In this document: positions 555-36,808 of the stretch, one piece after another
Layout of the letters: each line of letters begins with the position of its first letter
How positions within the stretch are numbered: the stretch's first letter is position 1
From: Minisyncoccota bacterium
Lineage (GTDB): Bacteria > Patescibacteriota > Minisyncoccia > Phycocordibacterales > UBA9973
Direction of reading: 5' to 3'
Assembly (NCBI GenBank): GCA_041663005.1
Contig: JBAZRK010000002.1
Span: forward strand, 64,740-128,739
Length of the DNA stretch: 64,000 nucleotides
Program-made: the position numbers and the translations under genes
The notes under the pieces: generated by a model
Told to the model about the DNA's origin: nothing
Database searches by the model: none
What the model saw: only the letters and a program-made list of their open reading frames with translations

Positions 555-748
555 CGTACTATCCTCCTTCAGGGATTTTAAGCGTTGAACTACGAGAGAG
601 CCTGCAGTGCGTTAGTGGTTGCCCTGGAAACCAGGACACAACAGAAGTCTATTTTGGTGTCAGGGAACAGCGGAACTGGTTAAAAGCGGCTGCTTTTAAC
701 CTTTATTTAATGTTAGCACAAAAATAAAAAAGCAAGTGGAAAAGTTAT

Positions 749-762
749 CCCCCACACCTTTC
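749..762. repeat. Left arm of a perfect 14-bp inverted repeat (CCCCCACACCTTTC) flanking the GIY-YIG gene
   Basis: Its exact reverse complement is at 1064-1077. The adjacent GTTATC/GATAAC motifs are also mutually complementary. Confidence 0.6.
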
Positions 763-802
763 AACATATTGCTTCAGATTGTCAAATTTGTATAATTAAA
801 CT

Positions 803-1057
803 ATGTATTATCTATATATTTTAAAAAGTTTGAAGGACAAAAAGTTATACACAGGTTCGACAGACAATCTGAAGCGGAGACTTTCGGAACACAATAATGG
901 CGTAAATCGCTCGACAAAAGCACGCAGGCCTTTCGAACTACGTTATTATGAAGCTTATTCTAGTGAGCAAGACGCCAGAAAGCGAGAATATTCGCTAAAG
1001 AAAGATGGTAAGGCTCTGGCGCAACTGAAGAGAAGGATTTCCGAAAGTCTAAATTAA
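803..1057 (+). CDS. GIY-YIG nuclease superfamily protein (UPF0213/URI-domain small endonuclease)
   Basis: Motifs YILKS..KKLYTGSTDNLKRRLSEHN.G and Y.E.Y..E..A.KRE..LK match the GIY-YIG family. An extended -10 (TGtATAAT) lies upstream. Confidence 0.85.
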   Translation: MYYLYILKSLKDKKLYTGSTDNLKRRLSEHNNGVNRSTKARRPFELRYYEAYSSEQDARKREYSLKKDGKALAQLKRRISESLN

Positions 1058-1063
1058 TAACCC

Positions 1064-1077
1064 GAAAGGTGTGGGGG
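1064..1077. repeat. Right arm of the inverted repeat (GAAAGGTGTGGGGG), which also forms a local hairpin followed by a T-tract (terminator-like)
   Basis: aggtg...cacct stem followed by gcttttttatt. Confidence 0.55.
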
Positions 1078-1118
1078 TTATCCACCTGCTTTTTTATTGT
1101 TGTGTCAAATTTTCTAAG

Positions 1119-3833: not shown

Positions 3834-3970
3834 AGGTTTAATTATACTATATAACCCCCTGCCACTATAAGTATCTCCCCTGTGGATATCTTGCCAAGTT
3901 TACGATGCTGTGATAAGCTTCTATTGTATGAGTCCTGTCCGAAACAGGGCTTTTTTTAATAAAAATTAAA

Positions 3971-4013
3971 CCCCGACGTAAAAAGTCGGAGTCCCGACCT
4001 CAAAGCGTCGGGA
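3971..4013. repeat. Copy A of a roughly 45-nt double-hairpin palindromic repeat (intergenic, upstream of nusA)
   Basis: ccccgacg-taaaaa-gtcggagtcccgacc-tcaaa-gcgtcggga. It shares its architecture with copies at 14453, 24231 and 36464. Confidence 0.65.
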
Positions 4014-4028
4014 TAAAAAAGCAAAATT

Positions 4029-5171
4029 ATGTTAGACCTAAAAACATTCAAATCCGCATTGGAACAGCTAGAAGAAGAGAGAAAAATCCCTCAAGCCAAG
4101 ATACTCGAAGCCATAGAGCAAGCTATGGCCGCCGCTTATAAAAAGGACTACGGCAAGAAGGGCCAAATAATTCGCGCTAAGTTCGACCTTGAAACTGGTA
4201 AAACAGACTTTTACCAGGTAAAAATAGTTGTGGACGACAGCATCGCCATAATGGACCACGACGAAGAAATTCCCGAGGACGACGAAAGAGTGCATTTTAA
4301 TTCCGAACACCACATCCTAATAGATGACGCCAAGAAAATTAAAAAAGGCGCCGAAGTTCACGATGAAATAATTTTCCCGTTGGAAGCCAAGGATGACTAC
4401 GGCCGTATTGCCGCCCAGACTGCCAAGCAGGTTATTGTCCAGAAAATCCGCGAAGCTGAACGCTCCTCCATTATTGACGAATATGGCGGTAAAGAAGGTG
4501 AGGTTGTTTCCGGTGTAGTGCAGAAGGTGGAACGAGGCAACGTATATGTGGACTTCAACAGAGCCACAGGTATTTTGCCTGCCGAAGAACAAATCCCGGG
4601 AGAATACTGGGAACGCGGACGCAGAGTGCGCGCCTATCTCTACAGCGTCGAAGATACTCCAAGAGGCATAAATCTCCGTCTCTCTCGTACACATCCGAAA
4701 TTTTTGGAGCGTTTGTTCGCAATGGAAGCTCCTGAAATAGAGAACGGTATAGTAGAAATTAAGTCCGTGGCCCGCGAAGCCGGCGCCCGTTCTAAAATCG
4801 CCGTCTTCTCGAACGACGAACACATCGACGCCGTCGGTTCTTGTGTGGGGCAGAAAGGTACTCGAGTCAACACCATTACCGCTGAACTGTCTGGAGAAAA
4901 AATTGATATAATCACGTGGTCGGAAGATCCGAAACAGTTAGTTTCGAACGCTCTCTCTCCGGCAAAAGTTATTTCCATAGAAACCAATGACGAAGAACAC
5001 AAGGCTTCGGTAGAAGTGGCAGACGACCAGCTCTCACTCGCGATAGGCAAGGGCGGGCAAAATGTGCGCCTAGCAGCCAAGCTCACCGGCTGGAGAATAG
5101 ACATCAAGGGCGCCGGCGGAGAAGTAGCTTCCACCGATGGTGAGAAAGTTGAGGTAAAAGAAGAAGAATAA
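4029..5171 (+). CDS. nusA: Transcription termination/antitermination factor NusA
   Basis: N-terminal NusA domain, S1 domain and two KH domains (LAIGKGGQNVRLAAKLTGWRIDIK). Short Gram-positive-type form without AR domains. Confidence 0.9.
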   Translation: MLDLKTFKSALEQLEEERKIPQAKILEAIEQAMAAAYKKDYGKKGQIIRAKFDLETGKTDFYQVKIVVDDSIAIMDHDEEIPEDDERVHFNSEHHILIDDAKKIKKGAEVHDEIIFPLEAKDDYGRIAAQTAKQVIVQKIREAERSSIIDEYGGKEGEVVSGVVQKVERGNVYVDFNRATGILPAEEQIPGEYWERGRRVRAYLYSVEDTPRGINLRLSRTHPKFLERLFAMEAPEIENGIVEIKSVAREAGARSKIAVFSNDEHIDAVGSCVGQKGTRVNTITAELSGEKIDIITWSEDPKQLVSNALSPAKVISIETNDEEHKASVEVADDQLSLAIGKGGQNVRLAAKLTGWRIDIKGAGGEVASTDGEKVEVKEEE

Positions 5172-5197: not shown

Positions 5198-7210
5198 ATG
5201 AATCCATTTTTATTGTTTGCATTAGTAAGTTCGGTAGTGGCTATCGTTTATGGATTATTTCTAGCAGCGTCAATATTAAAGAAAAGCCCTGGCAATGCGC
5301 GAATGCAAGAAATTGCAAAAGCAATCCAGGACGGAGCAGGTGCTTACTTAAACAAACAATACAAAACTATCGGTATGATAGCCGTAGTTCTATTCTTCGT
5401 TATCGGCTTCATACAAAAACTCGGATGGACTATGGCCTTCGGATTCTTGGTAGGTGCAGTATTCTCAGCACTTGCCGGATACATAGGTATGAACGTCTCG
5501 GTGCGTGCGAACGTGCGAACAACTGAAGCCGCCAGGAGCGGCTTGGGCTCTGCGCTATCGCTCGCTTTCAAGGGCGGGACAGTAACCGGGCTTCTGGTAG
5601 TAGGCCTTGCACTCCTTGGCGTGACTTTATTTTATGCAATCACCAAAGATGTAACCGCGCTCGTCGGACTCGGATTCGGAGCATCGCTTATTTCTGTTTT
5701 CGCAAGATTGGGCGGCGGAATTTTCACTAAAGCCGCAGACGTCGGCGCCGACTTAGTCGGAAAAATTGAAGCCGGCATTCCTGAAGATGACCCAAGAAAT
5801 CCCGGAGTTATCGCTGACAACGTCGGAGACAACGTCGGAGATTGCGCCGGAATGGCAGCAGACCTTTTCGAAACTTACGCCGTCACATCTGTGGCTACTA
5901 TGCTCCTCGGCTCTCTTCTCTTCATCGATTTTGAAAACGCAATTATTTATCCGCTCGTAATAGGTGGTATGGCAATATTCGCTTCTATCATCGGCACTTG
6001 GTTCGTACGACTGGGAAAGACAAAAAATATAATGGGTGCTTTGTATAAAGGCCTCATTGCGTCGGGAGTTATCGCCGCAGCGACTTTCTACCCTGTTACA
6101 AAAATGTTAATGGCCGACAACGGCACATACTCTGTGATGGATTTATTTATTTGTTCTCTCGTGGGACTTTTCGTGACTGGAGCACTTGTAATAATTACCG
6201 AATATTTCACTTCTACGAAATACGCTCCTGTTAAATCTATCGCCCAAGCTTCTGTATCCGGCCACGGCACAAACGTAATTCAAGGTTTGGCAATCTCTAT
6301 GAAGTCTACAGCTTGGCCACTCATTACCATTGTTGTTGGAATTCTAGTGAGCTACAACTACGGAGGTCTATACGGTATCGCTATCGCAGCAATGTCTATG
6401 CTTTCTATGACTGGTATCATCGTGGCTATTGACGCCTACGGACCAATCACTGATAACGCAGGAGGAATAGCAGAAATGGCAGAACTTCCAAAAGAAGTTC
6501 GTGATGTCACTGACCCCCTCGATGCAGTCGGAAATACGACCAAAGCGGTTACCAAAGGTTATGCCATCGGCTCCGCCGGACTCGCCGCTCTCGTACTATT
6601 CGCTTCTTATACTGAAGAAATTATTAAAGCTGGAAAAACTTTATCCTTTGATTTGAGCAACCCTTATGTCATCGTTGGATTATTTATCGGAGGACTTTTG
6701 CCTTATTACTTCGGCGCGCTCTGCATGGAAGCAGTAGGAAAGACTGCGGGTGAAGTCGTAGAAGAAATCCGCCGACAATTCAGAGAAATTAAAGGCATAA
6801 TGGAAGGCACAGGCAAACCAGATTATGCAAAAGCAGTATCCATCATCACTGGCGCCGCCATCAAGCAAATGGTTCTCCCCGCTCTTATTCCCGTGCTTGC
6901 CCCTATTTTAGTAATTATTATTTTCGGAGTAGAAAATGGATTGATAGTTTTGGGCGGACTTTTGATGGGGTCTATTGTCACAGGACTCTTCGTAGCAATA
7001 TCCATGACTTCCGGTGGTGGAGCTTGGGACAATGCCAAGAAATACATAGAATTAGGTAACTTCGGAGGAAAGGGTAGCGAGGCCCACAAAGCAGCCGTTA
7101 CAGGAGATACTGTCGGCGACCCGTACAAAGACGCAGCCGGCCCAGCTATCAATCCAATGATAAAGATTCTCAATATCGTTGCATTACTTTTGGTGGCTTT
7201 CTTGATATAA
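5198..7210 (+). CDS. hppA: Membrane-bound proton-translocating pyrophosphatase (K+-insensitive/V-type H+-PPase)
   Basis: Signature [19 protein letters not shown]...[31 protein letters not shown]. Polytopic membrane protein. Confidence 0.9.
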
Positions 7211-11247: not shown

Positions 11248-14200
11248 TTATAAATATTCCTTATAAGATTTTATTTCCAAGTCTTCGACTTTATAACGGG
11301 CTAGCGCTTTAATAAAAGCTCTAGCGAGGTGCAGGTCGGTAAAGAGAGGCACTTGGTTGTCCACCGTTGCGCGACGAATATGGAAACCGTCAGTGAGCAT
11401 TCGGCCGGATTCTCCTTTGGCATCCGGATCGGCAACTTCCCTCTTGCTTAAATTTACCACAAAAGAAACTTTCTTGCCTTCAATGATACTTAGAGCGTTC
11501 GGCATTCCTTCAGACGCTTTACGTACCATCTGACATTGAATCTTCTGCTTGTCGAGGAATTCAGCAGTAGTGTCGGTTGCAAAAATATTGTAGCCTAGGT
11601 CGCGGAGGAGCCCTGCCGCTTCTAAGAATTTAGCCTTATTGACTTCTCCGCCGAGCGACAGAAGCACATTTTTATTTTTGAAGTCAAACTTATTGGTACT
11701 CATAATGGATTTTATGAGCGCTTCGTCATAGTCCTTGCCGAAACACGCCGCTTCTCCAGTAGAAGCCATCTCAACCCGAAGTACTGGGTCCGCCCCCAAG
11801 AGCCTAGCGAAGGAAAATTGCGGAGATTTGACTACCACGCTTTTTGGATACTCCACTCTTTGAGGCTTGGCAATTCCTAAGAAACTTTCAACCGAAACTT
11901 CCGGCAAATTAATATCCATTGCTTTAGAGAGTAGTGGAAACGTTCGGCTCGCGCGCGCATTCACTTCTATCACATATGGTCTATTGTCTTTAACTAAAAA
12001 TTGTATATTGAAGGGCCCTGTAATATTTAACCCTTTAGCTATTTTCTTAGAAATTTCGCGAATTTGAAATTCAGTAGAAGCATAAACTCGCTGGGTTGGG
12101 TACACAATCGTAGCATCTCCAGAGTGCACTCCTGCGTTCTCGACGTGTTCCGAAATAGCGTATACCATCACCTCTCCTTTCTGCGCCACAGCGTCAAATT
12201 CGAGCTCCTTGGCGTTCTCGACATATTTGGAGATTGTCACCGGGTGCTCCGGGGAAAGAACTGCCGCGTTGTTGATAAAATCATGCATCTGTCTTTTGGA
12301 ATAACACACTCGCATCGCCGCACCAGAAAGTACATAGGACGGACGCACTAAGACTGGAAAGCCCTCGATCTCTGCGAATTTTTCGGCATCTAGCTTGGAT
12401 ACGAAACTCTGCCATTTCGGTTGGAGTATCCCGAGTTTATCTAGAAGCGCCGAGAAGGCGTTCCTGTCTTCGGCTCGGTCAATGTCTTCAGCTTTCGTTC
12501 CTAAAATGTGAAAGCCGGTACCGGAAAGCTTTTTTGCCAGGTTGTTCGGGCGCTGTCCGCCGACAGAAATGATTGTGCCTTCGGGTTTTTCAAACATACA
12601 TATGTCGGCAACTGTTTCGAAAGACAAGTTTTCGAAATACAGACGGTTAGACATATCGTAATCCGTTGAAACTGTTTCTGGGTTGCAGTTGATGATGATG
12701 GATTTCTTGCCATATTTGCCAAGCGCCAGCGCCGTGTAAACCGAGGACCAGTCGAACTCCACTGAAGACCCGATGTGATACGGACCGGAACCTAGAACGA
12801 TAATCGCGTTCTTGCCCAAAGGCGCTACGTCGTGATGCGCACCGTGATAAGTCAGGTATAGGTAATTCGTTTTCGCGGGAACTTCTCCGGCTAAAGTATC
12901 GATAGCGAAAACAAACGGAGTCACTCCTAACTTTATACGAATCTTGCGAATTTCGAGTTCTTTTTTACCGCAAAGTTTCGCTATTTTCTTGTCAGAAAAT
13001 CCATTTTGCTTTAAGGCTAACAAGTTTTCTCGGTTTAATATTTTTGTTTTAAGAAACTTTTTTTCAACGTTGATGATATTTTGGATACGATACAAAAACC
13101 AAGGATCAATACCAGTAATTTTATAAATTTGTTCCACAGTTTTTCCGGTTTTGAGTGCCTCCGCAACGGCAAAGACTCGACGTGGAGTCGGCGTTTCAAG
13201 GAATTTATCTGCCTCGGCCTTATTTTGAAAACCATTATCGGTCACACTTTCTTCTGCTCCGCGCGCCATCCTGACAGCTTTCTCGAAAGCTTCTTCGAAG
13301 GTTCGCCCGATGGCCATTACTTCTCCGACAGATTTCATCGCGCTACCTATTCGCTCCGCTGCGCCTACGAATTTCGACAAATCCCATCGCGGCATTTTCA
13401 CTACGATGTAGTCGAGGGCCGGCTCGAAAAAGCTCTGGGTAACTTTCGTAATTTTATTTTCCACTCCTAGTAAACTATGTCCCAACGCCAATTTCGCCGC
13501 TACGTAGGCTAGAGGATACCCTGTGGCCTTCGATGCCAGGGCGCTTGAGCGTGAGAGGCGGGCGTTAACTTCAATCACGTAGTAATCCGGGTCGTCGGAC
13601 TTGGGGTTCGGGTTTAAGGCATATTGCACATTGCATTCCCCTACAATTTTTAAACTCTCTACTATTTTAATGCTGGCTTCGCGAAGACGATGATATTCTT
13701 CGTTGTTGAGGGTCTGACTCGGCGCCACAACGATGGAGTCCCCGGTGTGAATACCAAGCGGATCGAGGTTCTCCATATTGCAAACGGTGACAATGTTGCC
13801 GAAGCTATCGCGCACAACTTCATACTCAACTTCTTTAAAGTGGTGGAGATATTTTTCAATCAATACTTGCGGAGACACCGCCAGCGCGCCCTTAACTATT
13901 TCTTCAAGCTCAGTGTTGTTATAAGCGACGCCGGATTTCTGTCCCCCGAGGGCGAAAGCTGCACGCACCATTAACGGGAAGCCGATTCTATCTGCAATCT
14001 CTTTCGCTTGAGTAAAGTTAACAGCCGCCCCGGAGGCCGGTACTGGAATATTGATACCTTTCAAATGGTGAGCAAATTTTTCGCGGTCTTCGGTAAGTTC
14101 AATCGAGGAAATAGGGCTACCTAAAATTTCTGCATTGTATTTTTTGAAAACTCCCTTGTGCGAAAGCGCTACCCCGCAGTTAAGCGCTGTCTGTCCGCCA

Positions 14201-14526
14201 AAAGAAAGCATTATGCCGTCGGGGCGTTCCTTTTTAATGACTTGCTCCACGAAAAAAGGCTCCACCGGCAAGAAATAAACTTCGTCGGCAAAATCTTTCG
14301 AGGTTTGATAAGTGGCGATATTCGGGTTTATCAAAACCACTTTAATCTTTTCTTCTTTCAGGGCTTTAATGGCCTGACTACCGGAATAATCAAATTCCCC
14401 TGCCTCGCCGATTTTGAGCGCCCCCGACCCTAGTATGAGAACTTTTTTAAAAGCCGACGCTTTCGGTCGGCTCCCCGACCTTTGGGAGCGTCGGGGTTTA
14501 TTAGGTTTTTTATTTTCTTTTTGCAT
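11248..14526 (-). CDS. carB: Carbamoyl-phosphate synthase large subunit
   Basis: Duplicated ATP-grasp halves, GEFDYSGSQA near the N-terminus and an MGS-like C-terminus. 1092 aa. The N-terminal extension is encoded by palindromic repeat copy B. Confidence 0.95.
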   Translation of the reverse strand: MQKENKKPNKPRRSQRSGSRPKASAFKKVLILGSGALKIGEAGEFDYSGSQAIKALKEEKIKVVLINPNIATYQTSKDFADEVYFLPVEPFFVEQVIKKERPDGIMLSFGGQTALNCGVALSHKGVFKKYNAEILGSPISSIELTEDREKFAHHLKGINIPVPASGAAVNFTQAKEIADRIGFPLMVRAAFALGGQKSGVAYNNTELEEIVKGALAVSPQVLIEKYLHHFKEVEYEVVRDSFGNIVTVCNMENLDPLGIHTGDSIVVAPSQTLNNEEYHRLREASIKIVESLKIVGECNVQYALNPNPKSDDPDYYVIEVNARLSRSSALASKATGYPLAYVAAKLALGHSLLGVENKITKVTQSFFEPALDYIVVKMPRWDLSKFVGAAERIGSAMKSVGEVMAIGRTFEEAFEKAVRMARGAEESVTDNGFQNKAEADKFLETPTPRRVFAVAEALKTGKTVEQIYKITGIDPWFLYRIQNIINVEKKFLKTKILNRENLLALKQNGFSDKKIAKLCGKKELEIRKIRIKLGVTPFVFAIDTLAGEVPAKTNYLYLTYHGAHHDVAPLGKNAIIVLGSGPYHIGSSVEFDWSSVYTALALGKYGKKSIIINCNPETVSTDYDMSNRLYFENLSFETVADICMFEKPEGTIISVGGQRPNNLAKKLSGTGFHILGTKAEDIDRAEDRNAFSALLDKLGILQPKWQSFVSKLDAEKFAEIEGFPVLVRPSYVLSGAAMRVCYSKRQMHDFINNAAVLSPEHPVTISKYVENAKELEFDAVAQKGEVMVYAISEHVENAGVHSGDATIVYPTQRVYASTEFQIREISKKIAKGLNITGPFNIQFLVKDNRPYVIEVNARASRTFPLLSKAMDINLPEVSVESFLGIAKPQRVEYPKSVVVKSPQFSFARLLGADPVLRVEMASTGEAACFGKDYDEALIKSIMSTNKFDFKNKNVLLSLGGEVNKAKFLEAAGLLRDLGYNIFATDTTAEFLDKQKIQCQMVRKASEGMPNALSIIEGKKVSFVVNLSKREVADPDAKGESGRMLTDGFHIRRATVDNQVPLFTDLHLARAFIKALARYKVEDLEIKSYKEYL
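14453..14496. repeat. Copy B of the double-hairpin palindromic repeat (inside the carB 5' end/N-terminal extension, overlapping the carA-carB junction)
   Basis: gccgacgc-tttc-ggtcggctccccgacc-tttgg-gagcgtcgggg. Confidence 0.6.
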
Positions 14527-15571
14527 ATATTTTGGCTTTTTTTAGAAAATAATCGAATATCCAGTCAGTGTCGAGGGGTCCTGGAGAAGATTCTGGGTGA
14601 AACTGTACTGCCATAAAAGGCAGGCTCGTGTGAATTATCCCTTCGTTCGTGCCATCGTTTCCATTTACGAACCACTCCTTGAAACCTTTTGGGATTTTCT
14701 TTACTGCAAAGCCGTGATTCTGGGTTGAGAGATAACATTTGTTGCTGCCCGCGAGCACCACTGGCTGATTTTGGCTTCTGTGTCCGAATTTCATTTTGTA
14801 GGTAGTACCTCCTAGCGCTAGGGCTAGGATTTGATTGCCTAAGCAAATACCAAGTGTAGGGATTTTCTTGGCGATTATTTTTTTCACATTCTGAATGGTG
14901 GTCTGGGCCATCTTTGGGTCCCCTGGGCCGTTCGAAATTACTACCGCCTTGAATGGAAATTCGAGTCTGGTTACGTCTGTGTCGAGAGGTACCACTGCCA
15001 CCCGGAAACCTCTAGCGGTCAGCCTGCGCACGATGTTCCTTTTCGCCCCACAGTCTATGAGAACGATTGTGTTTTTGCCTTTGCCCTCGAAGCTTACTTT
15101 CTTAACGCTAACTTCTTGCGCCAGATTTCTTAAATTGGGATCTTCGAAAGAGATATTTTTTGTGTTCGTTAAAATTTTTCCTAAAATAGCACCCTCGTCT
15201 CTAATTTTCTGCGTTATCGCCCGCGTATCTTTAATTTCAATAAGAGGCACTCCTTCTTTCTTAAACCACTCCGCTAGGGTTGACTTCATTGCGTAGTGTG
15301 ACGGAGTGTCGACATAGCTCGACACAATGAGCCCAGAGACCTGAATCTTGTCGGACTCCCACAATTCCTTCCTCGGCACGCCGTAGTTACCAACGATCGG
15401 GTAAGTCATAACTAAAATCTGCCCCCGAAAAGAGGGGTCCGTCAGCGCTTCAGGGTAACCTACCATCCCCGTGGCAAAGACCACCTCCCCGGCAATCGAT
15501 TTATCTGCCCCGAAACTCTTACCTTCGAAAGTTGTACCGTCTTTGAGAATAAGTTTTGCTTTTTTGTTCAT
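14510..15571 (-). CDS. carA: Carbamoyl-phosphate synthase small subunit (glutamine amidotransferase)
   Basis: Class I GATase motif GICLGNQILALALGG and a CPSase small-chain N-terminal domain. Confidence 0.9.
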   Translation of the reverse strand: MNKKAKLILKDGTTFEGKSFGADKSIAGEVVFATGMVGYPEALTDPSFRGQILVMTYPIVGNYGVPRKELWESDKIQVSGLIVSSYVDTPSHYAMKSTLAEWFKKEGVPLIEIKDTRAITQKIRDEGAILGKILTNTKNISFEDPNLRNLAQEVSVKKVSFEGKGKNTIVLIDCGAKRNIVRRLTARGFRVAVVPLDTDVTRLEFPFKAVVISNGPGDPKMAQTTIQNVKKIIAKKIPTLGICLGNQILALALGGTTYKMKFGHRSQNQPVVLAGSNKCYLSTQNHGFAVKKIPKGFKEWFVNGNDGTNEGIIHTSLPFMAVQFHPESSPGPLDTDWIFDYFLKKAKIYAKRK

Positions 15572-23695: not shown

Positions 23696-24790
23696 ATGTT
23701 TTACAAGCACAACGATACTTATACCGTAGAGAGCGTTACTTCTGGGCACCCGGACAAAATCTGTGACCAGGTCTCGGACGCTATTTTAGATGCCTATTTA
23801 ACCGTAGATTCTAAGGCTCGCGTCGCTGTTGAGACCTTCGGCGGCCACGGCAAGCTCACCATCGGCGGCGAAATCACGTCCACTGGCAAGGTTGACTACG
23901 TGCAGATTGCACGGGACGTTTACAAGAAAATAGGATACGAAGATAACCTAGAAATCTCTGCCCACCTGGTAACACAATCCCCTGACATTGCGATGGGTGT
24001 CGACAGTGGCGGCGCCGGTGACCAAGGCATAATGTACGGCTTTGCCACTGATGAAACTCCGGAATTTTTGCCAAAGGGCGTTGTCCTCGTGCACAAACTT
24101 GCAAAACGTTTAGAAGAAGCGCGAAAATCTGGAGAAATTAAATGGCTACGCCCAGACGGCAAGACTCAAGCAACATATGCAGACGGGAAATTGCATACAG
24201 TATTAGTAAGCACTCAGCATGCCTTAGAAACCCCGACGCCAGAAGGGGTCGGGGTCCCGACCACAAGCGTCGGGATTAAAAAAGAAATCACCGAGAAAGT
24301 TATTTATCCGTTACTTTCTGAAACAGAAAAACAAACTGTGAAAATACTTGTAAACCCCACAGGTCAATTTATCCAAGGCGGATTCGAAGCCGACACAGGA
24401 TTAACGGGTAGAAAAATAATGGTAGACACTTACGGCGGAATAATTCCCCACGGCGGCGGATGTTTCTCAGGAAAGGACGCCACGAAGGTTGACCGCTCTG
24501 GCGCGTATATGGCGCGATTCGTAGCCAAGAACTTGGTTGCTAATGGCTACGGCAAGGACGTTCTCGTCTCCGTAGCGTACGCAATTGGTATGGCAGAGCC
24601 TTTGATGGTTGAAGCCATTAATGAAAAGGGCGAGGACCTTTCAGAAATTGTAAAAAGGAATTTCGATTTCCGCCCGCAGGCCATAATAGAGCGCCTAGGT
24701 TTACGCGCTCCAATTTTCAGCCAGACTGCCGCCTACGGCCACTTCGGTAAAGTTGATTTGCCTTGGGAAAAAATAGAAAAAATTGTGTAA
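23696..24790 (+). CDS. metK: S-adenosylmethionine synthetase
   Basis: GHPDKICDQVSDAILD and GGGAFSGKD-type motifs. Contains an in-frame roughly 15-aa insertion encoded by repeat copy C. Confidence 0.95.
   Translation: MFYKHNDTYTVESVTSGHPDKICDQVSDAILDAYLTVDSKARVAVETFGGHGKLTIGGEITSTGKVDYVQIARDVYKKIGYEDNLEISAHLVTQSPDIAMGVDSGGAGDQGIMYGFATDETPEFLPKGVVLVHKLAKRLEEARKSGEIKWLRPDGKTQATYADGKLHTVLVSTQHALETPTPEGVGVPTTSVGIKKEITEKVIYPLLSETEKQTVKILVNPTGQFIQGGFEADTGLTGRKIMVDTYGGIIPHGGGCFSGKDATKVDRSGAYMARFVAKNLVANGYGKDVLVSVAYAIGMAEPLMVEAINEKGEDLSEIVKRNFDFRPQAIIERLGLRAPIFSQTAAYGHFGKVDLPWEKIEKIV
24231..24275. repeat. Copy C of the double-hairpin palindromic repeat, inside metK and read in frame
   Basis: ccccgacgc-cagaag-gggtcggggtcccgacc-acaa-gcgtcggga encodes TPTPEGVGVPTTSVG between conserved MetK blocks. 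Confidence 0.65.
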
Positions 24791-35149: not shown

Positions 35150-35967
35150 TGAAAATAATAAGCTGGAACGTCAACGGAATACGGGCAGTGCACAAGAAAG
35201 GACTTTTTGTACCTTTTGTGAAAAAATACCAACCTGATATTTTATGCCTGCAGGAAACCAAGGCTGAACAACACCAGAGCCAAGTTGACCTCGACGAATA
35301 TGAAGAATATTGGCATTCTGCGGAACGGAAGGGCTACAGCGGTACAGCAATTTTCACCCGGATAGAGGTTAAACCTCTATCTGTGGTTTTTGGTTTGCCG
35401 AAAAGTATCGAAAAAAAATATAATTTGAAAGATAAATATGGTGACCCGAACACCGAGGGCAGAATAATTTGCGCAGAATTTAAAGATTTCTTTGTAGTGA
35501 CTGTTTACACCCCAAACGCTAAGGATGACCTCTCTCGCCTCCCCCTCCGCCACAAGCATTGGGATCCAGCATTTCTGGAATATATGAAAAGTTTAGAAAA
35601 TCCTTCGGCAAGCTCAGGACGTACCGGAAAACCAGTAATTTTTTGCGGAGATTTAAATGTGGCCCACACGCCGGACGACCTCGCTCGTCCGAAAGAAAAT
35701 GTCGGCAACAAAGGCTTCACTGACGAAGAGCGTGAAGGAATTCAAAATATAATTGATGCAGGCTTCGTAGACACTTTCCGAATATTCACTAAAGGCAACG
35801 GGCACTACTCCTGGTGGAGCCACTTTGCCAACGCTCGCGCACGGAACGTCGGCTGGCGCATCGACTATATTTTCGTCTCACAAAAATTAGCAAAGAAGGT
35901 TAAAAAGGCTGAAATTTTACCTGAAGTCCTAGGCTCAGATCATTGCCCCGTCTCTATAGAGCTATAA
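35149..35967 (+). CDS. xth: Exodeoxyribonuclease III (AP endonuclease)
   Basis: MKIISWNVNGIRA, CLQETK, GDLNVAH, SDHCPV motifs. Confidence 0.9.
   Translation: MKIISWNVNGIRAVHKKGLFVPFVKKYQPDILCLQETKAEQHQSQVDLDEYEEYWHSAERKGYSGTAIFTRIEVKPLSVVFGLPKSIEKKYNLKDKYGDPNTEGRIICAEFKDFFVVTVYTPNAKDDLSRLPLRHKHWDPAFLEYMKSLENPSASSGRTGKPVIFCGDLNVAHTPDDLARPKENVGNKGFTDEEREGIQNIIDAGFVDTFRIFTKGNGHYSWWSHFANARARNVGWRIDYIFVSQKLAKKVKKAEILPEVLGSDHCPVSIEL
35361..35381. repeat. 21-nt perfect palindrome GATAGAGGTTAAACCTCTATC inside xth. An identical copy is at 43195-43219
   Basis: Exact 23-nt identity between the two loci, seen directly. Confidence 0.6.
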
Positions 35968-36808
35968 GCTTTGGTTTTACATTCCCGAACCATTTCCGGG
36001 TTAGCGCATCTATGGTCTGAGTTTCGTCGGTGATTAAAATTTTTGCGGTTTTGCCACGAGAAAGCTTTTTTGATATCTCTTCGTGCCTTGTGAGATAATT
36101 TTTTAGTTTTATCGGAACAATTTCATCTTGAGAAATTATTTTCACTTTAGTTCCAACTATTTTCTTTATCTCCTTCTTGTATATAGGATAATGGGTACAA
36201 CCCAAGACTAGCGCATCAATCTTTTTGCCCACAAAGGGCTGTAAATATTTTTTTATAAACGGCAGCGCGCTCGCTTTCTCCCCCGCTTCCGCTAGTGGCA
36301 CGAGCATCGGTGCCGAATTCTGGAATACTTTTGTTTTTTTATTTAACTTTTGAATTTCTTCTGGGAAAGCCCTCGACGCTACCGTGCCCGCCGTCCCAAG
36401 CACACCAACATTTTTAAACTTCGCGGCTTCTTCTGCCGCCGGAATTAAAACTCCAAGAACTTTCCCCGACGCTTTCGGTCGGGGTCCCGACCCCTTACGG
36501 CGTCGGGATTGATTTTTAAAATATTTCTGGAGGGGCTTCAGTGCCCGAGCAGAGGAAGTATTGCAGGCAATTATAACTATCGCGCAATTTTCTTTCTGGA
36601 AAAGATGGTTCACCGCTTCCTTGGTGAATTCGAACACCGCTTGGTGCGAGCGATTACCATAGGGCACCCTCTTGGTATCCCCTAAATACACATAGTCATA
36701 TTGAGGCATTGCTCTCCGTATTGCCTTCGCCACAATAAGCCCGCCCAACCCTGAATCAAAAATTCCTATTTTCTTCCCGTTAGAAATTTTATTATTTTTT
36801 CTTAGCAT
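35954..36808 (-). CDS. murI: Glutamate racemase
   Basis: GIFDSGLGGL, CNT, GCTHYP motifs. Contains an in-frame roughly 16-aa insertion (SRRRKGSGPRPKAS) encoded by repeat copy D. Confidence 0.9.
   Translation of the reverse strand: MLRKNNKISNGKKIGIFDSGLGGLIVAKAIRRAMPQYDYVYLGDTKRVPYGNRSHQAVFEFTKEAVNHLFQKENCAIVIIACNTSSARALKPLQKYFKNQSRRRKGSGPRPKASGKVLGVLIPAAEEAAKFKNVGVLGTAGTVASRAFPEEIQKLNKKTKVFQNSAPMLVPLAEAGEKASALPFIKKYLQPFVGKKIDALVLGCTHYPIYKKEIKKIVGTKVKIISQDEIVPIKLKNYLTRHEEISKKLSRGKTAKILITDETQTIDALTRKWFGNVKPKLIAL
36464..36508. repeat. Copy D of the double-hairpin palindromic repeat, inside murI and read in frame
   Basis: ccccgacgc-tttc-ggtcggggtcccgacc-cctta-cggcgtcggga. Confidence 0.65.

What the first reader, a model, noticed from the sequence alone, without database searches (positions are those of the whole stretch)
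3971..4013. Family of roughly 45-nt double-hairpin palindromic repeats (4 copies in 64 kb)
Four copies share the architecture CCCCGACGC-loop-GGTCGGGGTCCCGACC-loop-GCGTCGGGA. That is two tandem hairpins built from CCGAC/GTCGG arms. They sit at 3971-4013, 14453-14496, 24231-24275 and 36464-36508, all in the same orientation. One copy is intergenic, upstream of nusA. The other three lie inside protein-coding sequence and are read through in frame. This pattern matches Rickettsia palindromic elements, where a selfish palindromic repeat inserts into genes and creates new peptide segments. An additional half-copy-like fragment (gcgcccccgaccc) sits at 14419-14433.
Basis: partly seen in the sequence, partly recalled or inferred. 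Interest (0 to 1): 0.75.

Follow-up and report, generated by a model that had tools for sequence, protein, structure and literature searches.

The report
Mobile double-hairpin DNA repeat in genes
Four copies of a 43-45-base GC-rich double-hairpin DNA element sit in this window, three of them inserted in frame into housekeeping genes; the element belongs to a family found across ultra-small Patescibacteria (CPR) bacteria, behaves like selfish mobile DNA, and elsewhere sits directly in front of a small nuclease gene beside tRNA genes.

Summary
A covariance model built only from copies in other genomes finds exactly four copies, at 3971-4013, 14452-14496, 24231-24275 and 36464-36508 (E about 1e-9); the next hit has E 0.5. 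Each copy is two adjacent hairpins: NN-CCGAC, a bulged G, a variable upper stem and loop, then GTCGG-NN. Covariation supports every variable pair. The element is dyad-symmetric, so "same orientation" has no meaning. The "half-copy" at 14419-14433 is simply the codons of CarB's conserved LGSGA motif. The metK, murI and carB copies are exact 45-nt in-frame insertions. The metK insert is absent from 118 of 120 MetK orthologs, and the murI insert is absent from the closest MurI relatives, with no target-site duplication. The family is widespread: more than 119 loci, 98 of them labelled Patescibacteria. One genome carries a recent burst of copies. Intragenic copies are enriched for lengths that are multiples of three. 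In 61 of 80 independently retrieved loci, the element sits 6-44 nt upstream of a stand-alone GIY-YIG nuclease gene that abuts a tRNA gene. My best reading is a non-autonomous mobile element that works like Rickettsia palindromic elements, possibly mobilised by that nuclease. I found no prior description.

The parts
3971..4013 (.). Copy 1 of the double-hairpin element (43 nt). It is intergenic, between a terminator-like hairpin (3930-3952) and the nusA start codon at 4029. Hairpin 1 has one C.A mismatch.
   Evidence: An orthologous copy, 44/45 nt identical, sits at the same place in a related Paceibacterota MAG (L004).
14452..14496 (.). Copy 2 (45 nt), in frame after codon 6 of carB on the minus strand, encoding PRRSQRSGSRPKASA.
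   Evidence: There is no alternative start codon downstream of the copy. E. coli CarB residue 2 aligns to residue 21 of this protein. Deleting the 45 nt gives MQKENKFKKVLILG.
24231..24275 (.). Copy 3 (45 nt), in frame inside metK on the plus strand, encoding TPTPEGVGVPTTSVG.
   Evidence: It is absent from 118 of 120 orthologs. It is shared with Nomurabacteria RIFOXYD2_FULL_35_12 at 43/45 nt identity, while third codon positions of the rest of the gene are 39% identical.
36464..36508 (.). Copy 4 (45 nt), in frame inside murI (glutamate racemase) on the minus strand, encoding SRRRKGSGPRPKASG.
   Evidence: It is an insertion relative to solved racemase structures and to the closest orthologs. The empty site in the syntenic relative L125 reads 'aaa cat aaa|aag atc', against 'aaa aat caa[45 nt]aaa gtt' in the window, with no target duplication.
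4029..5171 (+). nusA, the gene whose 5' leader carries copy 1.
   Evidence: translation. The syntenic relative has NusA Pfam domains.
11248..14526 (-). carB, the host gene of copy 2. Its ATG overlaps the end of carA (14510-15571) by 17 nt.
23696..24790 (+). metK, the host gene of copy 3.
35954..36808 (-). murI, the host gene of copy 4.
803..1054 (+). Stand-alone 84-aa GIY-YIG nuclease ORF. It belongs to the same superfamily as the element-linked nucleases seen in other genomes but to a different subfamily. It is not adjacent to any copy, so it is only a candidate trans-acting factor. It is flanked by roughly 46-nt inverted repeats at 717-762 and 1064-1104.
   Evidence: Its link to the element is inference only.

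Best explanation
The four loci are copies of a dispersed, GC-rich DNA element made of two adjacent hairpins. Each hairpin has a 7-bp stem (NN-CCGAC / GTCGG-NN), one bulged G, and then a variable upper stem and loop. The two hairpins are inverted copies of each other, so the whole element is dyad-symmetric. It is a selfish, non-autonomous mobile element of Patescibacteria (CPR) genomes. It inserts precisely, without target-site duplication, into AT-rich intergenic DNA and into genes. Selection then removes intragenic copies unless they keep the reading frame and fall in tolerant loops or termini, where they are translated as about 15 extra residues. Shown here: the structure, the insertion polymorphism, the in-frame filter, the spread across genomes, and a within-genome burst. 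Inferred: the mechanism of movement. My preferred mechanism is that the element is recognised as extruded or single-stranded hairpin DNA by a small stand-alone GIY-YIG nuclease. That nuclease is most similar to UPF0213 proteins, and more weakly to SLX1 and I-TevI. In other CPR genomes its gene is immediately preceded by a copy of this element, inside cassettes built into the 5' side of tRNA genes. [quoted passage not shown]
For: Structure: 99.1% of cells pair, all 6 variable pairs covary, and there are 160 double-sided changes against 38 +/- 5 in shuffles. The tandem fold beats the nested fold. Identity of the copies: a model built from other genomes finds exactly these four. Insertion: MetK, 118 of 120 orthologs lack it. 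MurI, a clean 45-nt insertion with no duplication, absent from the closest and syntenic relatives. CarB, a 45-nt insertion after codon 6. In tRNA-fragment contexts, deleting the element restores the exact tRNA sequence. Selection filter: 38 of 50 intragenic copies have lengths divisible by 3, against 31 of 82 outside genes. Amplification: at least 11 near-identical copies sit in different contexts in one Taylorbacteria MAG. Nuclease link: 5 of 132 copies lie 12-31 nt upstream of an 86-90-aa GIY-YIG ORF. In the reverse test, 61 of 80 metagenomic loci retrieved by the protein alone have the element ending 6-44 nt upstream of the ORF. 52 of 60 have a same-strand tRNA downstream, 47 of them starting within -11 to +36 nt of the ORF end. 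31 of 45 show the tRNA's own 5' acceptor strand duplicated just upstream of the element. The nuclease is a bare catalytic domain whose best solved matches are UPF0213 proteins (E 5e-10 and 4e-8); SLX1, I-TevI and UvrC match only weakly (E 0.002-0.01).
Against: No transposition event or enzyme activity is shown, and the GIY-YIG link is correlative. The window's own GIY-YIG ORF belongs to another subfamily and lies 2.9 kb from the nearest copy. Whether the source genome has an element-nuclease-tRNA cassette is unknown. The metK copy is far more conserved between two lineages than synonymous sites of the same gene (14/15 against 135/350 third positions, P = 2e-5). Pure junk DNA would not predict this; it points to nucleotide-level constraint or repeated homing. 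The metK site shows a net gain of 30 nt and not 45 nt relative to most orthologs. Loops differ among the window's copies, so none of the four is a recent duplicate of another.
Confidence: 0.7

Rival explanations
1. The element is a functional nucleic-acid structure, not selfish DNA. It could be a protein-binding hairpin pair, a 5'-leader stabiliser, or a processing signal in RNA, recruited at many loci because it does something for the cell.
For: Covariation preserves the fold. The metK copy is conserved at 43/45 nt while synonymous sites are saturated. Many intergenic copies lie 9-50 nt upstream of start codons, including nusA here and the GIY-YIG genes elsewhere.
Against: Copies occur inside unrelated housekeeping ORFs at poorly conserved loops and are missing from close orthologs. 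They occur in all intergenic contexts, including convergent ones. Dyad symmetry makes both strands equivalent, which is unusual for an RNA signal. One genome shows a burst of identical copies. No Rfam family matches.
Confidence: 0.15
2. The element is a REP/REPIN- or IS200/IS605-type palindrome moved by an HUH tyrosine (Y1) transposase such as RAYT or TnpA, and the GIY-YIG association is incidental.
For: It is an inverted dimer of a short imperfect hairpin with an extrahelical base and inserts without target duplication. A CGTC tetranucleotide lies at the stem-loop junction, recalling CGTC-tagged REPs (PMC3733652).
Against: None appears among the most frequent Pfam families of the 95 flanking ORFs. 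38% of copies are intragenic, unlike REPs. There is no conserved target tetranucleotide. The GIY-YIG linkage at 61 of 80 loci is too strong to be incidental.
Confidence: 0.1
3. The intragenic copies are removed after transcription, like an intron, or skipped by the ribosome, like the GC-rich bypass elements of Magnusiomyces mitochondria. On this view the proteins never carry the extra peptide.
For: In other genomes the element also sits inside tRNA-like sequences, for example a tRNA-Arg-like gene in L029 with an intact acceptor stem. GC-rich mitochondrial hairpin elements are known to be bypassed (my own knowledge; Lang et al. 2014, cited in PMC4478555).
Against: Removal would not need frame preservation. 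Yet 38 of 50 intragenic copies are multiples of three, against 31 of 82 outside genes. All three window copies are exactly 45 nt and free of stop codons. Deleting the element did not restore any intact tRNA in 132 cases, because the tRNA-like hosts are truncated duplicates next to an intact tRNA.
Confidence: 0.04
4. The repeats are not a real family but a chance or codon-level by-product of protein motifs.
For: The 14419-14433 fragment is exactly such a by-product: it encodes the LGSGA motif of CarB.
Against: There are four matches against 0 in shuffles. Model E-values are about 1e-9. One copy is non-coding. The three host proteins are unrelated and their orthologs lack the segment.
Confidence: 0.01

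Closest known systems
Rickettsia palindromic elements (RPEs)
   Same: Both are selfish palindromic repeats in a reduced genome. Both insert in frame into housekeeping genes and add peptide segments, as well as landing in intergenic DNA.
   Different: RPEs are roughly 100-150 bp and restricted to Rickettsia (my own knowledge; RPE-4 and RPE-6 are classed as CGTC REPs in PMC3733652). This element is 39-60 bp, consists of two short hairpins with a CCGAC core, occurs in Patescibacteria, and is linked to a GIY-YIG gene.
REP / REPIN elements with RAYT transposases
   Same: Both are short imperfect hairpins arranged as inverted dimers, with many copies per genome, vertical persistence and occasional bursts. 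In both, a single-copy enzyme gene is flanked by the repeat.
   Different: REPs are essentially extragenic, carry unpaired GTAG or CGTC heads, and associate with HUH/Y1 transposases (PMC3733652, PMC3116915). Here 38% of copies are intragenic, no Y1 gene was seen, and the associated gene encodes a GIY-YIG nuclease.
Mitochondrial double-hairpin elements (Allomyces DHEs) and yeast mitochondrial GC clusters
   Same: Both are GC-rich elements of 26-79 bp in an AT-rich compact genome. Both fold into two stem-loops, with changes concentrated in the loops. Both are mobile, and endonucleases are suspected of moving them (PMC4478555; Paquin et al. 2000 as cited there).
   Different: Those elements are organellar, have different sequences, and GC clusters show putative target-site duplications. 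The CPR element shows none, and it has a specific neighbouring nuclease gene.
Free-standing GIY-YIG homing endonuclease genes in tRNA regions (for example phage T4 SegB)
   Same: A GIY-YIG gene sits among or against tRNA genes, and the invaded gene is kept functional by carrying a replacement segment (PMC2330249).
   Different: SegB-type enzymes have a DNA-binding domain and no hairpin repeat. The CPR proteins are bare 86-90-aa catalytic domains preceded by the double hairpin, and the repeat also spreads on its own.

Membership tests
Rickettsia palindromic elements | In-frame insertion into protein-coding genes with orthologs lacking the segment | tested here: met
Rickettsia palindromic elements | Element length of about 100-150 bp forming one long palindrome, with occurrence in Rickettsia | tested here: not met
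   The element is 43-45 nt and forms two tandem hairpins. The host is a Paceibacterota MAG.
Rickettsia palindromic elements | Sequence similarity to RPE-1 to RPE-10 consensus sequences | not tested
   No RPE consensus was available in the tools.
REP / REPIN-RAYT | Inverted dimer of a short imperfect hairpin | tested here: met
REP / REPIN-RAYT | Unpaired GTAG or CGTC head at one end of each unit | tested here: not met
   CGTC is present only as the bulged or loop C plus the first three stem bases. The stems end flush with no tail (definition from PMC3733652).
REP / REPIN-RAYT | Extragenic location | tested here: not met
   50-53 of 132 copies lie inside long ORFs, as do 3 of the 4 window copies.
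REP / REPIN-RAYT | Associated Y1 (HUH) transposase gene flanked by the repeat | tested here: inconclusive
   None was found in 1.08 Mb of fetched DNA or among the 25 most frequent Pfam families shown for 95 flanking ORFs. Whole genomes were not searched.
IS200/IS605-derived palindrome-associated elements | Insertion without target duplication | tested here: met
IS200/IS605-derived palindrome-associated elements | Insertion 3' of a fixed tetra- or pentanucleotide target | tested here: not met
   The empty sites differ: caa|aaa in murI, and TAG|CTCAG, TAGCT|CAG and TAGCTCAG|TTGG in tRNA fragments.
Mitochondrial double-hairpin elements / GC clusters | GC-rich 26-79-bp unit folding into two stem-loops, dispersed in an AT-richer compact genome | tested here: met
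   The copies are 0.60-0.73 GC in a window of about 0.44 GC. The fold is supported.
Mitochondrial double-hairpin elements / GC clusters | Common descent or sequence similarity with the organellar elements | not testable with these tools
   No organellar element sequences were available. The resemblance is architectural only.
GIY-YIG homing-endonuclease cassette | GIY-YIG ORF physically attached to the repeat | tested here: not met
   This is not met for the four window copies; the nearest GIY-YIG ORF is 2.9 kb away. It is met for the family elsewhere: 61 of 80 loci.

The most novel reading that the evidence does not exclude
The double hairpin is the DNA substrate of a new nuclease-repeat partnership. 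A bare 86-90-aa GIY-YIG domain recognises the extruded hairpins by structure and copies them around the genome. Its gene uses a tRNA promoter and, in several loci, the tRNA's own U8-A9-G10 as its stop codon. This would be a GIY-YIG counterpart of the REPIN-RAYT system. It would remodel proteins across the whole Patescibacteria radiation by in-frame insertion.
Probability: 0.35. Interest if true: 0.85.

Novelty: new variant of a known kind. Interest (0 to 1): 0.7.

Why it matters
Patescibacteria have tiny, streamlined genomes, yet this element shows they tolerate a mobile repeat that writes about 15 extra residues into core enzymes such as MetK, MurI and CarB. It offers a marker for insertion and loss events in lineages known almost only from metagenomes. 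It also explains some odd lineage-specific loops in CPR proteins. And it ties a short palindromic repeat to a GIY-YIG nuclease gene wedged against tRNA genes. If that enzyme moves the repeat, it is a new kind of transposition or homing system, and a possible function for the widespread UPF0213 small nucleases, whose role is unknown.

Tried and rejected
- **Element as a tRNA intron.** Deleting it with 36 boundary variants at 132 sites restored no tRNA. The tRNA-like flanks are truncated duplicates lying next to an intact tRNA.
- **Nested single long hairpin.** Rejected by pair statistics: 59-72% paired, against 96-99% for the tandem fold.
- **Extra single-hairpin sites at 5748 and 32127.** Their outer pairs do not fit, and the model scores them at 13 bits or less, so I treat them as chance.
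- **Known RNA family.** The Rfam gathering scan found only four tRNAs in the window.
- **Phage origin.** There was one match in 2.9 million viral contigs.
- **Terminator role.** The coding copies and strand context do not fit.
- **Literature.** Seven searches found no description of this element or of the nuclease-tRNA cassette in Patescibacteria. A preprint on tRNA group I introns in Patescibacteria does not mention hairpins or GIY-YIG.
- **A closer syntenic relative.** DNA for P0005's contig could not be fetched.

Full report
**What is in the window.** The generic pattern CCGAC-loop-GTCGG-NNNN-CCGAC-loop-GTCGG occurs four times and never in 100 shuffles. I later built covariance model R1 from 100 copies taken only from other genomes. 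It recovers exactly these four sites: 3971-4013, 14452-14496, 24231-24275 and 36464-36508. Scores are 51-57 bits with E 1e-8 to 8e-10, almost equal on both strands. The next hit scores 13 bits with E 0.5. The equal scores show that the element is dyad-symmetric, so "same orientation" has no meaning. The proposed half-copy at 14419-14433 is the minus-strand coding sequence for LGSGA in the conserved N-terminal motif of CarB. No Rfam family covers the element.

**Anatomy.** Single sequences fold either as two tandem hairpins or as one nested hairpin, because all four arms are the same pentamer or its complement. Comparative data settle this. In 128 copies, the two positions outside each CCGAC/GTCGG box pair within a hairpin in 96-99% of cases, with CG, UA, GC and AU exchanges. 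Across the element they pair in only 59-72% of cases, and the third outer position is random. On a 100-sequence alignment, 99.1% of cells pair and all six variable pairs covary. There are 160 double-sided changes, against 38 +/- 5 in shuffles, and sliding the partners by one column drops pairing to 39-56%. Each unit is therefore a 7-bp stem, a bulged G (a bulged C in the mirror unit), at least one further covarying pair, and a loop of very variable length. The element is two such units in inverted order with no spacer. The invariance of CCGAC, of the G or C next to it, and of parts of the centre was imposed by my search pattern, so I do not count it as evidence of conservation.

**Are the coding copies insertions?**
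- **MetK.** Of the 120 closest proteins, 118 lack the segment. The exceptions are the window's own protein (a Paceibacterota MAG, 307-kb contig) and that of Nomurabacteria RIFOXYD2_FULL_35_12. Codon alignments show empty sites such as 'gaa ata acc caa gaa gaa gtt aaa', against 'gaa a[45 nt]tt aaa' in the window. That is a net gain of 30 nt, which I cannot fully explain.
- **MurI.** The closest relatives lack 15 residues. These include a syntenic genome with about 72% nucleotide identity. At the DNA level the insertion is exactly 45 nt between 'caa' and 'aaa', with no duplication or loss. Solved racemase structures also lack the segment.
- **CarB.** The copy follows codon 6, and no other start codon lies downstream of it. 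Removing the 45 nt gives MQKENKFKKVLILG, which matches the E. coli N-terminus in length.
- **Overall.** All three intragenic copies are 45 nt and the intergenic copy is 43 nt. The syntenic relative also has a 354-aa MetK without the insert, but it keeps the nusA-leader copy at 44/45 identity. So occupancy differs between related genomes.

**The family outside the window.** By record title, 98 are Patescibacteria lineages: Saccharibacteria, Nomura-, Kaiser-, Taylor-, Doudna-, Uhr- and Zambryskibacteria, Paceibacterota and others. Six are unnamed, and 15 carry other labels. Four of those 15 are high-GC genomes that look like chance matches. Only one of 2.9 million viral contigs matched.

Of 132 copies, 50 lie in frames open for at least 40 codons on both sides. 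Of those 50, 38 have a length divisible by three, against 31 of 82 elsewhere. That is the signature of translated insertions filtered by selection, not of removal from RNA. Intergenic copies occur in every arrangement of neighbouring genes. One Taylorbacteria MAG holds at least 11 near-identical copies with extended conserved flanks in unrelated contexts, which indicates a recent burst.

**A constraint I did not expect.** Between the window and the Nomurabacteria metK genes, the element is 43/45 identical. The rest of the gene is 72.7% identical, and third codon positions are only 38.6% identical. Within the element 14 of 15 third positions match (Fisher P = 2e-5). Either the nucleotide sequence is under selection, or the same variant reached the same site more recently than the species split.

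**A link to a nuclease and to tRNA genes.** Many copies in other genomes sit within a truncated duplicate of the 5' end of a tRNA, interrupting its D arm, 15-57 nt upstream of the intact tRNA. A Pfam scan of 95 ORFs flanking copies gave GIY-YIG as the only family present more than twice. Five copies lie 12-31 nt upstream of an 86-90-aa GIY-YIG ORF. In four of these five, the ORF runs into the intact tRNA and uses the tRNA's T8-A9-G10 as its stop codon.

I then ran the reverse test and retrieved 80 metagenomic loci using the protein alone.
- In 61 of them, model R1 finds the element ending 6-44 nt upstream of the ORF.
- In 52 of 60 scanned loci, a same-strand tRNA lies downstream; in 47 of these it starts within -11 to +36 nt of the ORF end.
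- In 31 of 45, the tRNA's own acceptor strand is duplicated just upstream of the element.

The protein is a bare catalytic domain. Its best solved matches are UPF0213 proteins (E 5e-10 and 4e-8); I-TevI, SLX1 and UvrC match only weakly, at E 0.002-0.01. No HUH/Y1 transposase-like sequence was found in 1.08 Mb of fetched DNA. The window has its own 84-aa GIY-YIG ORF at 803-1054. It belongs to another subfamily, is not adjacent to any copy, and is flanked by roughly 46-nt inverted repeats.

**Interpretation.** Several things are shown: a structured, dyad-symmetric double hairpin; precise insertion without target duplication; patchy occupancy among relatives; an in-frame filter; wide distribution across Patescibacteria; and a within-genome burst. 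How it moves is inferred. The tight and reciprocal association with a stand-alone GIY-YIG nuclease gene makes that enzyme my preferred candidate. It might recognise extruded or single-stranded hairpins with an extrahelical base. No activity is shown, and the source genome's own cassette status is unknown.

The rival explanations are weighed in their own section:
- a functional RNA or DNA signal;
- an HUH-transposase system of the REP/IS200 type;
- post-transcriptional removal or ribosomal bypass;
- chance.

**Comparison and novelty.** The element works like RPEs and resembles REPIN dimers and mitochondrial double-hairpin elements or GC clusters (PMC3733652, PMC3116915, PMC4478555). It fails defining features of each. 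Its size and host differ from RPEs. It lacks the unpaired GTAG/CGTC head, the extragenic location and the Y1 partner of REPs. It is not organellar, and its sequence differs from the mitochondrial elements. The tRNA-linked GIY-YIG cassette recalls T4 SegB (PMC2330249), but it lacks a DNA-binding domain and carries the repeat. Seven literature searches and one relevant preprint gave no prior description in Patescibacteria. The searchable library is incomplete, so I rate the finding as a new variant of a known kind.

Noticed in passing
window 717-1104: An 84-aa stand-alone GIY-YIG ORF (803-1054, Pfam PF01541, E 4e-19) is bracketed by roughly 46-nt imperfect inverted repeats at 717-762 and 1064-1104. 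The 14-nt core CCCCCACACCTTTC occurs only at these two places in the window. It may be a small inverted-repeat-bounded mobile unit.
   Followed up: partly
L072 4317-4740; L110 2480-2905; L046 6186-6600; L075 1140-1565; L126-L205: There is a composite cassette in other CPR genomes. It consists of a truncated 5' tRNA duplicate interrupted by the double hairpin, then an 86-90-aa GIY-YIG ORF, then the intact tRNA. In several loci the ORF's stop codon is the tRNA's T8-A9-G10. The arrangement was found in 61 of 80 loci retrieved by the protein alone.
   Followed up: yes
L029 6110-6310 (minus strand): A tRNA-Arg(TCT)-like gene carries the element in its D arm and a second insert of about 70-90 nt in the T loop, while its acceptor stem still pairs. 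It could be a pseudogene or an unusually interrupted tRNA.
   Followed up: no
MurI orthologs P0129-P0227 and MetK ortholog P0101 (protein level): The same MurI loop, and the MetK site, carry other lineage-specific in-frame inserts in other Patescibacteria: PSLILPLTKGE..PKAEGV, SPFAGGE, YNxTRRLMGES and PARNASHSDAGG. These read like translations of other GC-rich palindromes, suggesting that several such repeat families exist in this phylum.
   Followed up: no
L054, L066, L070, L094, L097, L102, L107, L109 (Taylorbacteria RIFCSPLOWO2_12_FULL_43_20): At least 11 near-identical copies of a perfectly symmetric variant (loops gcttcg/cgaagc) share extended flanks, ATTCGTATyCAT on one side and TCGTATATTCGTAT on the other. 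This is a longer subfamily that amplified recently in one genome.
   Followed up: partly
window 24231-24275 versus L120 3536-3580: The metK copy is 43/45 identical between two lineages whose metK third codon positions are only 39% identical. The single stem change in L120 (CCGAC to ACGAC) breaks hairpin 2.
   Followed up: partly
window, whole: The pentamer CCGAC and its complement occur 125 times against 76 +/- 8 expected. Only 16 of these lie in the four copies, so a smaller excess remains unexplained.
   Followed up: no
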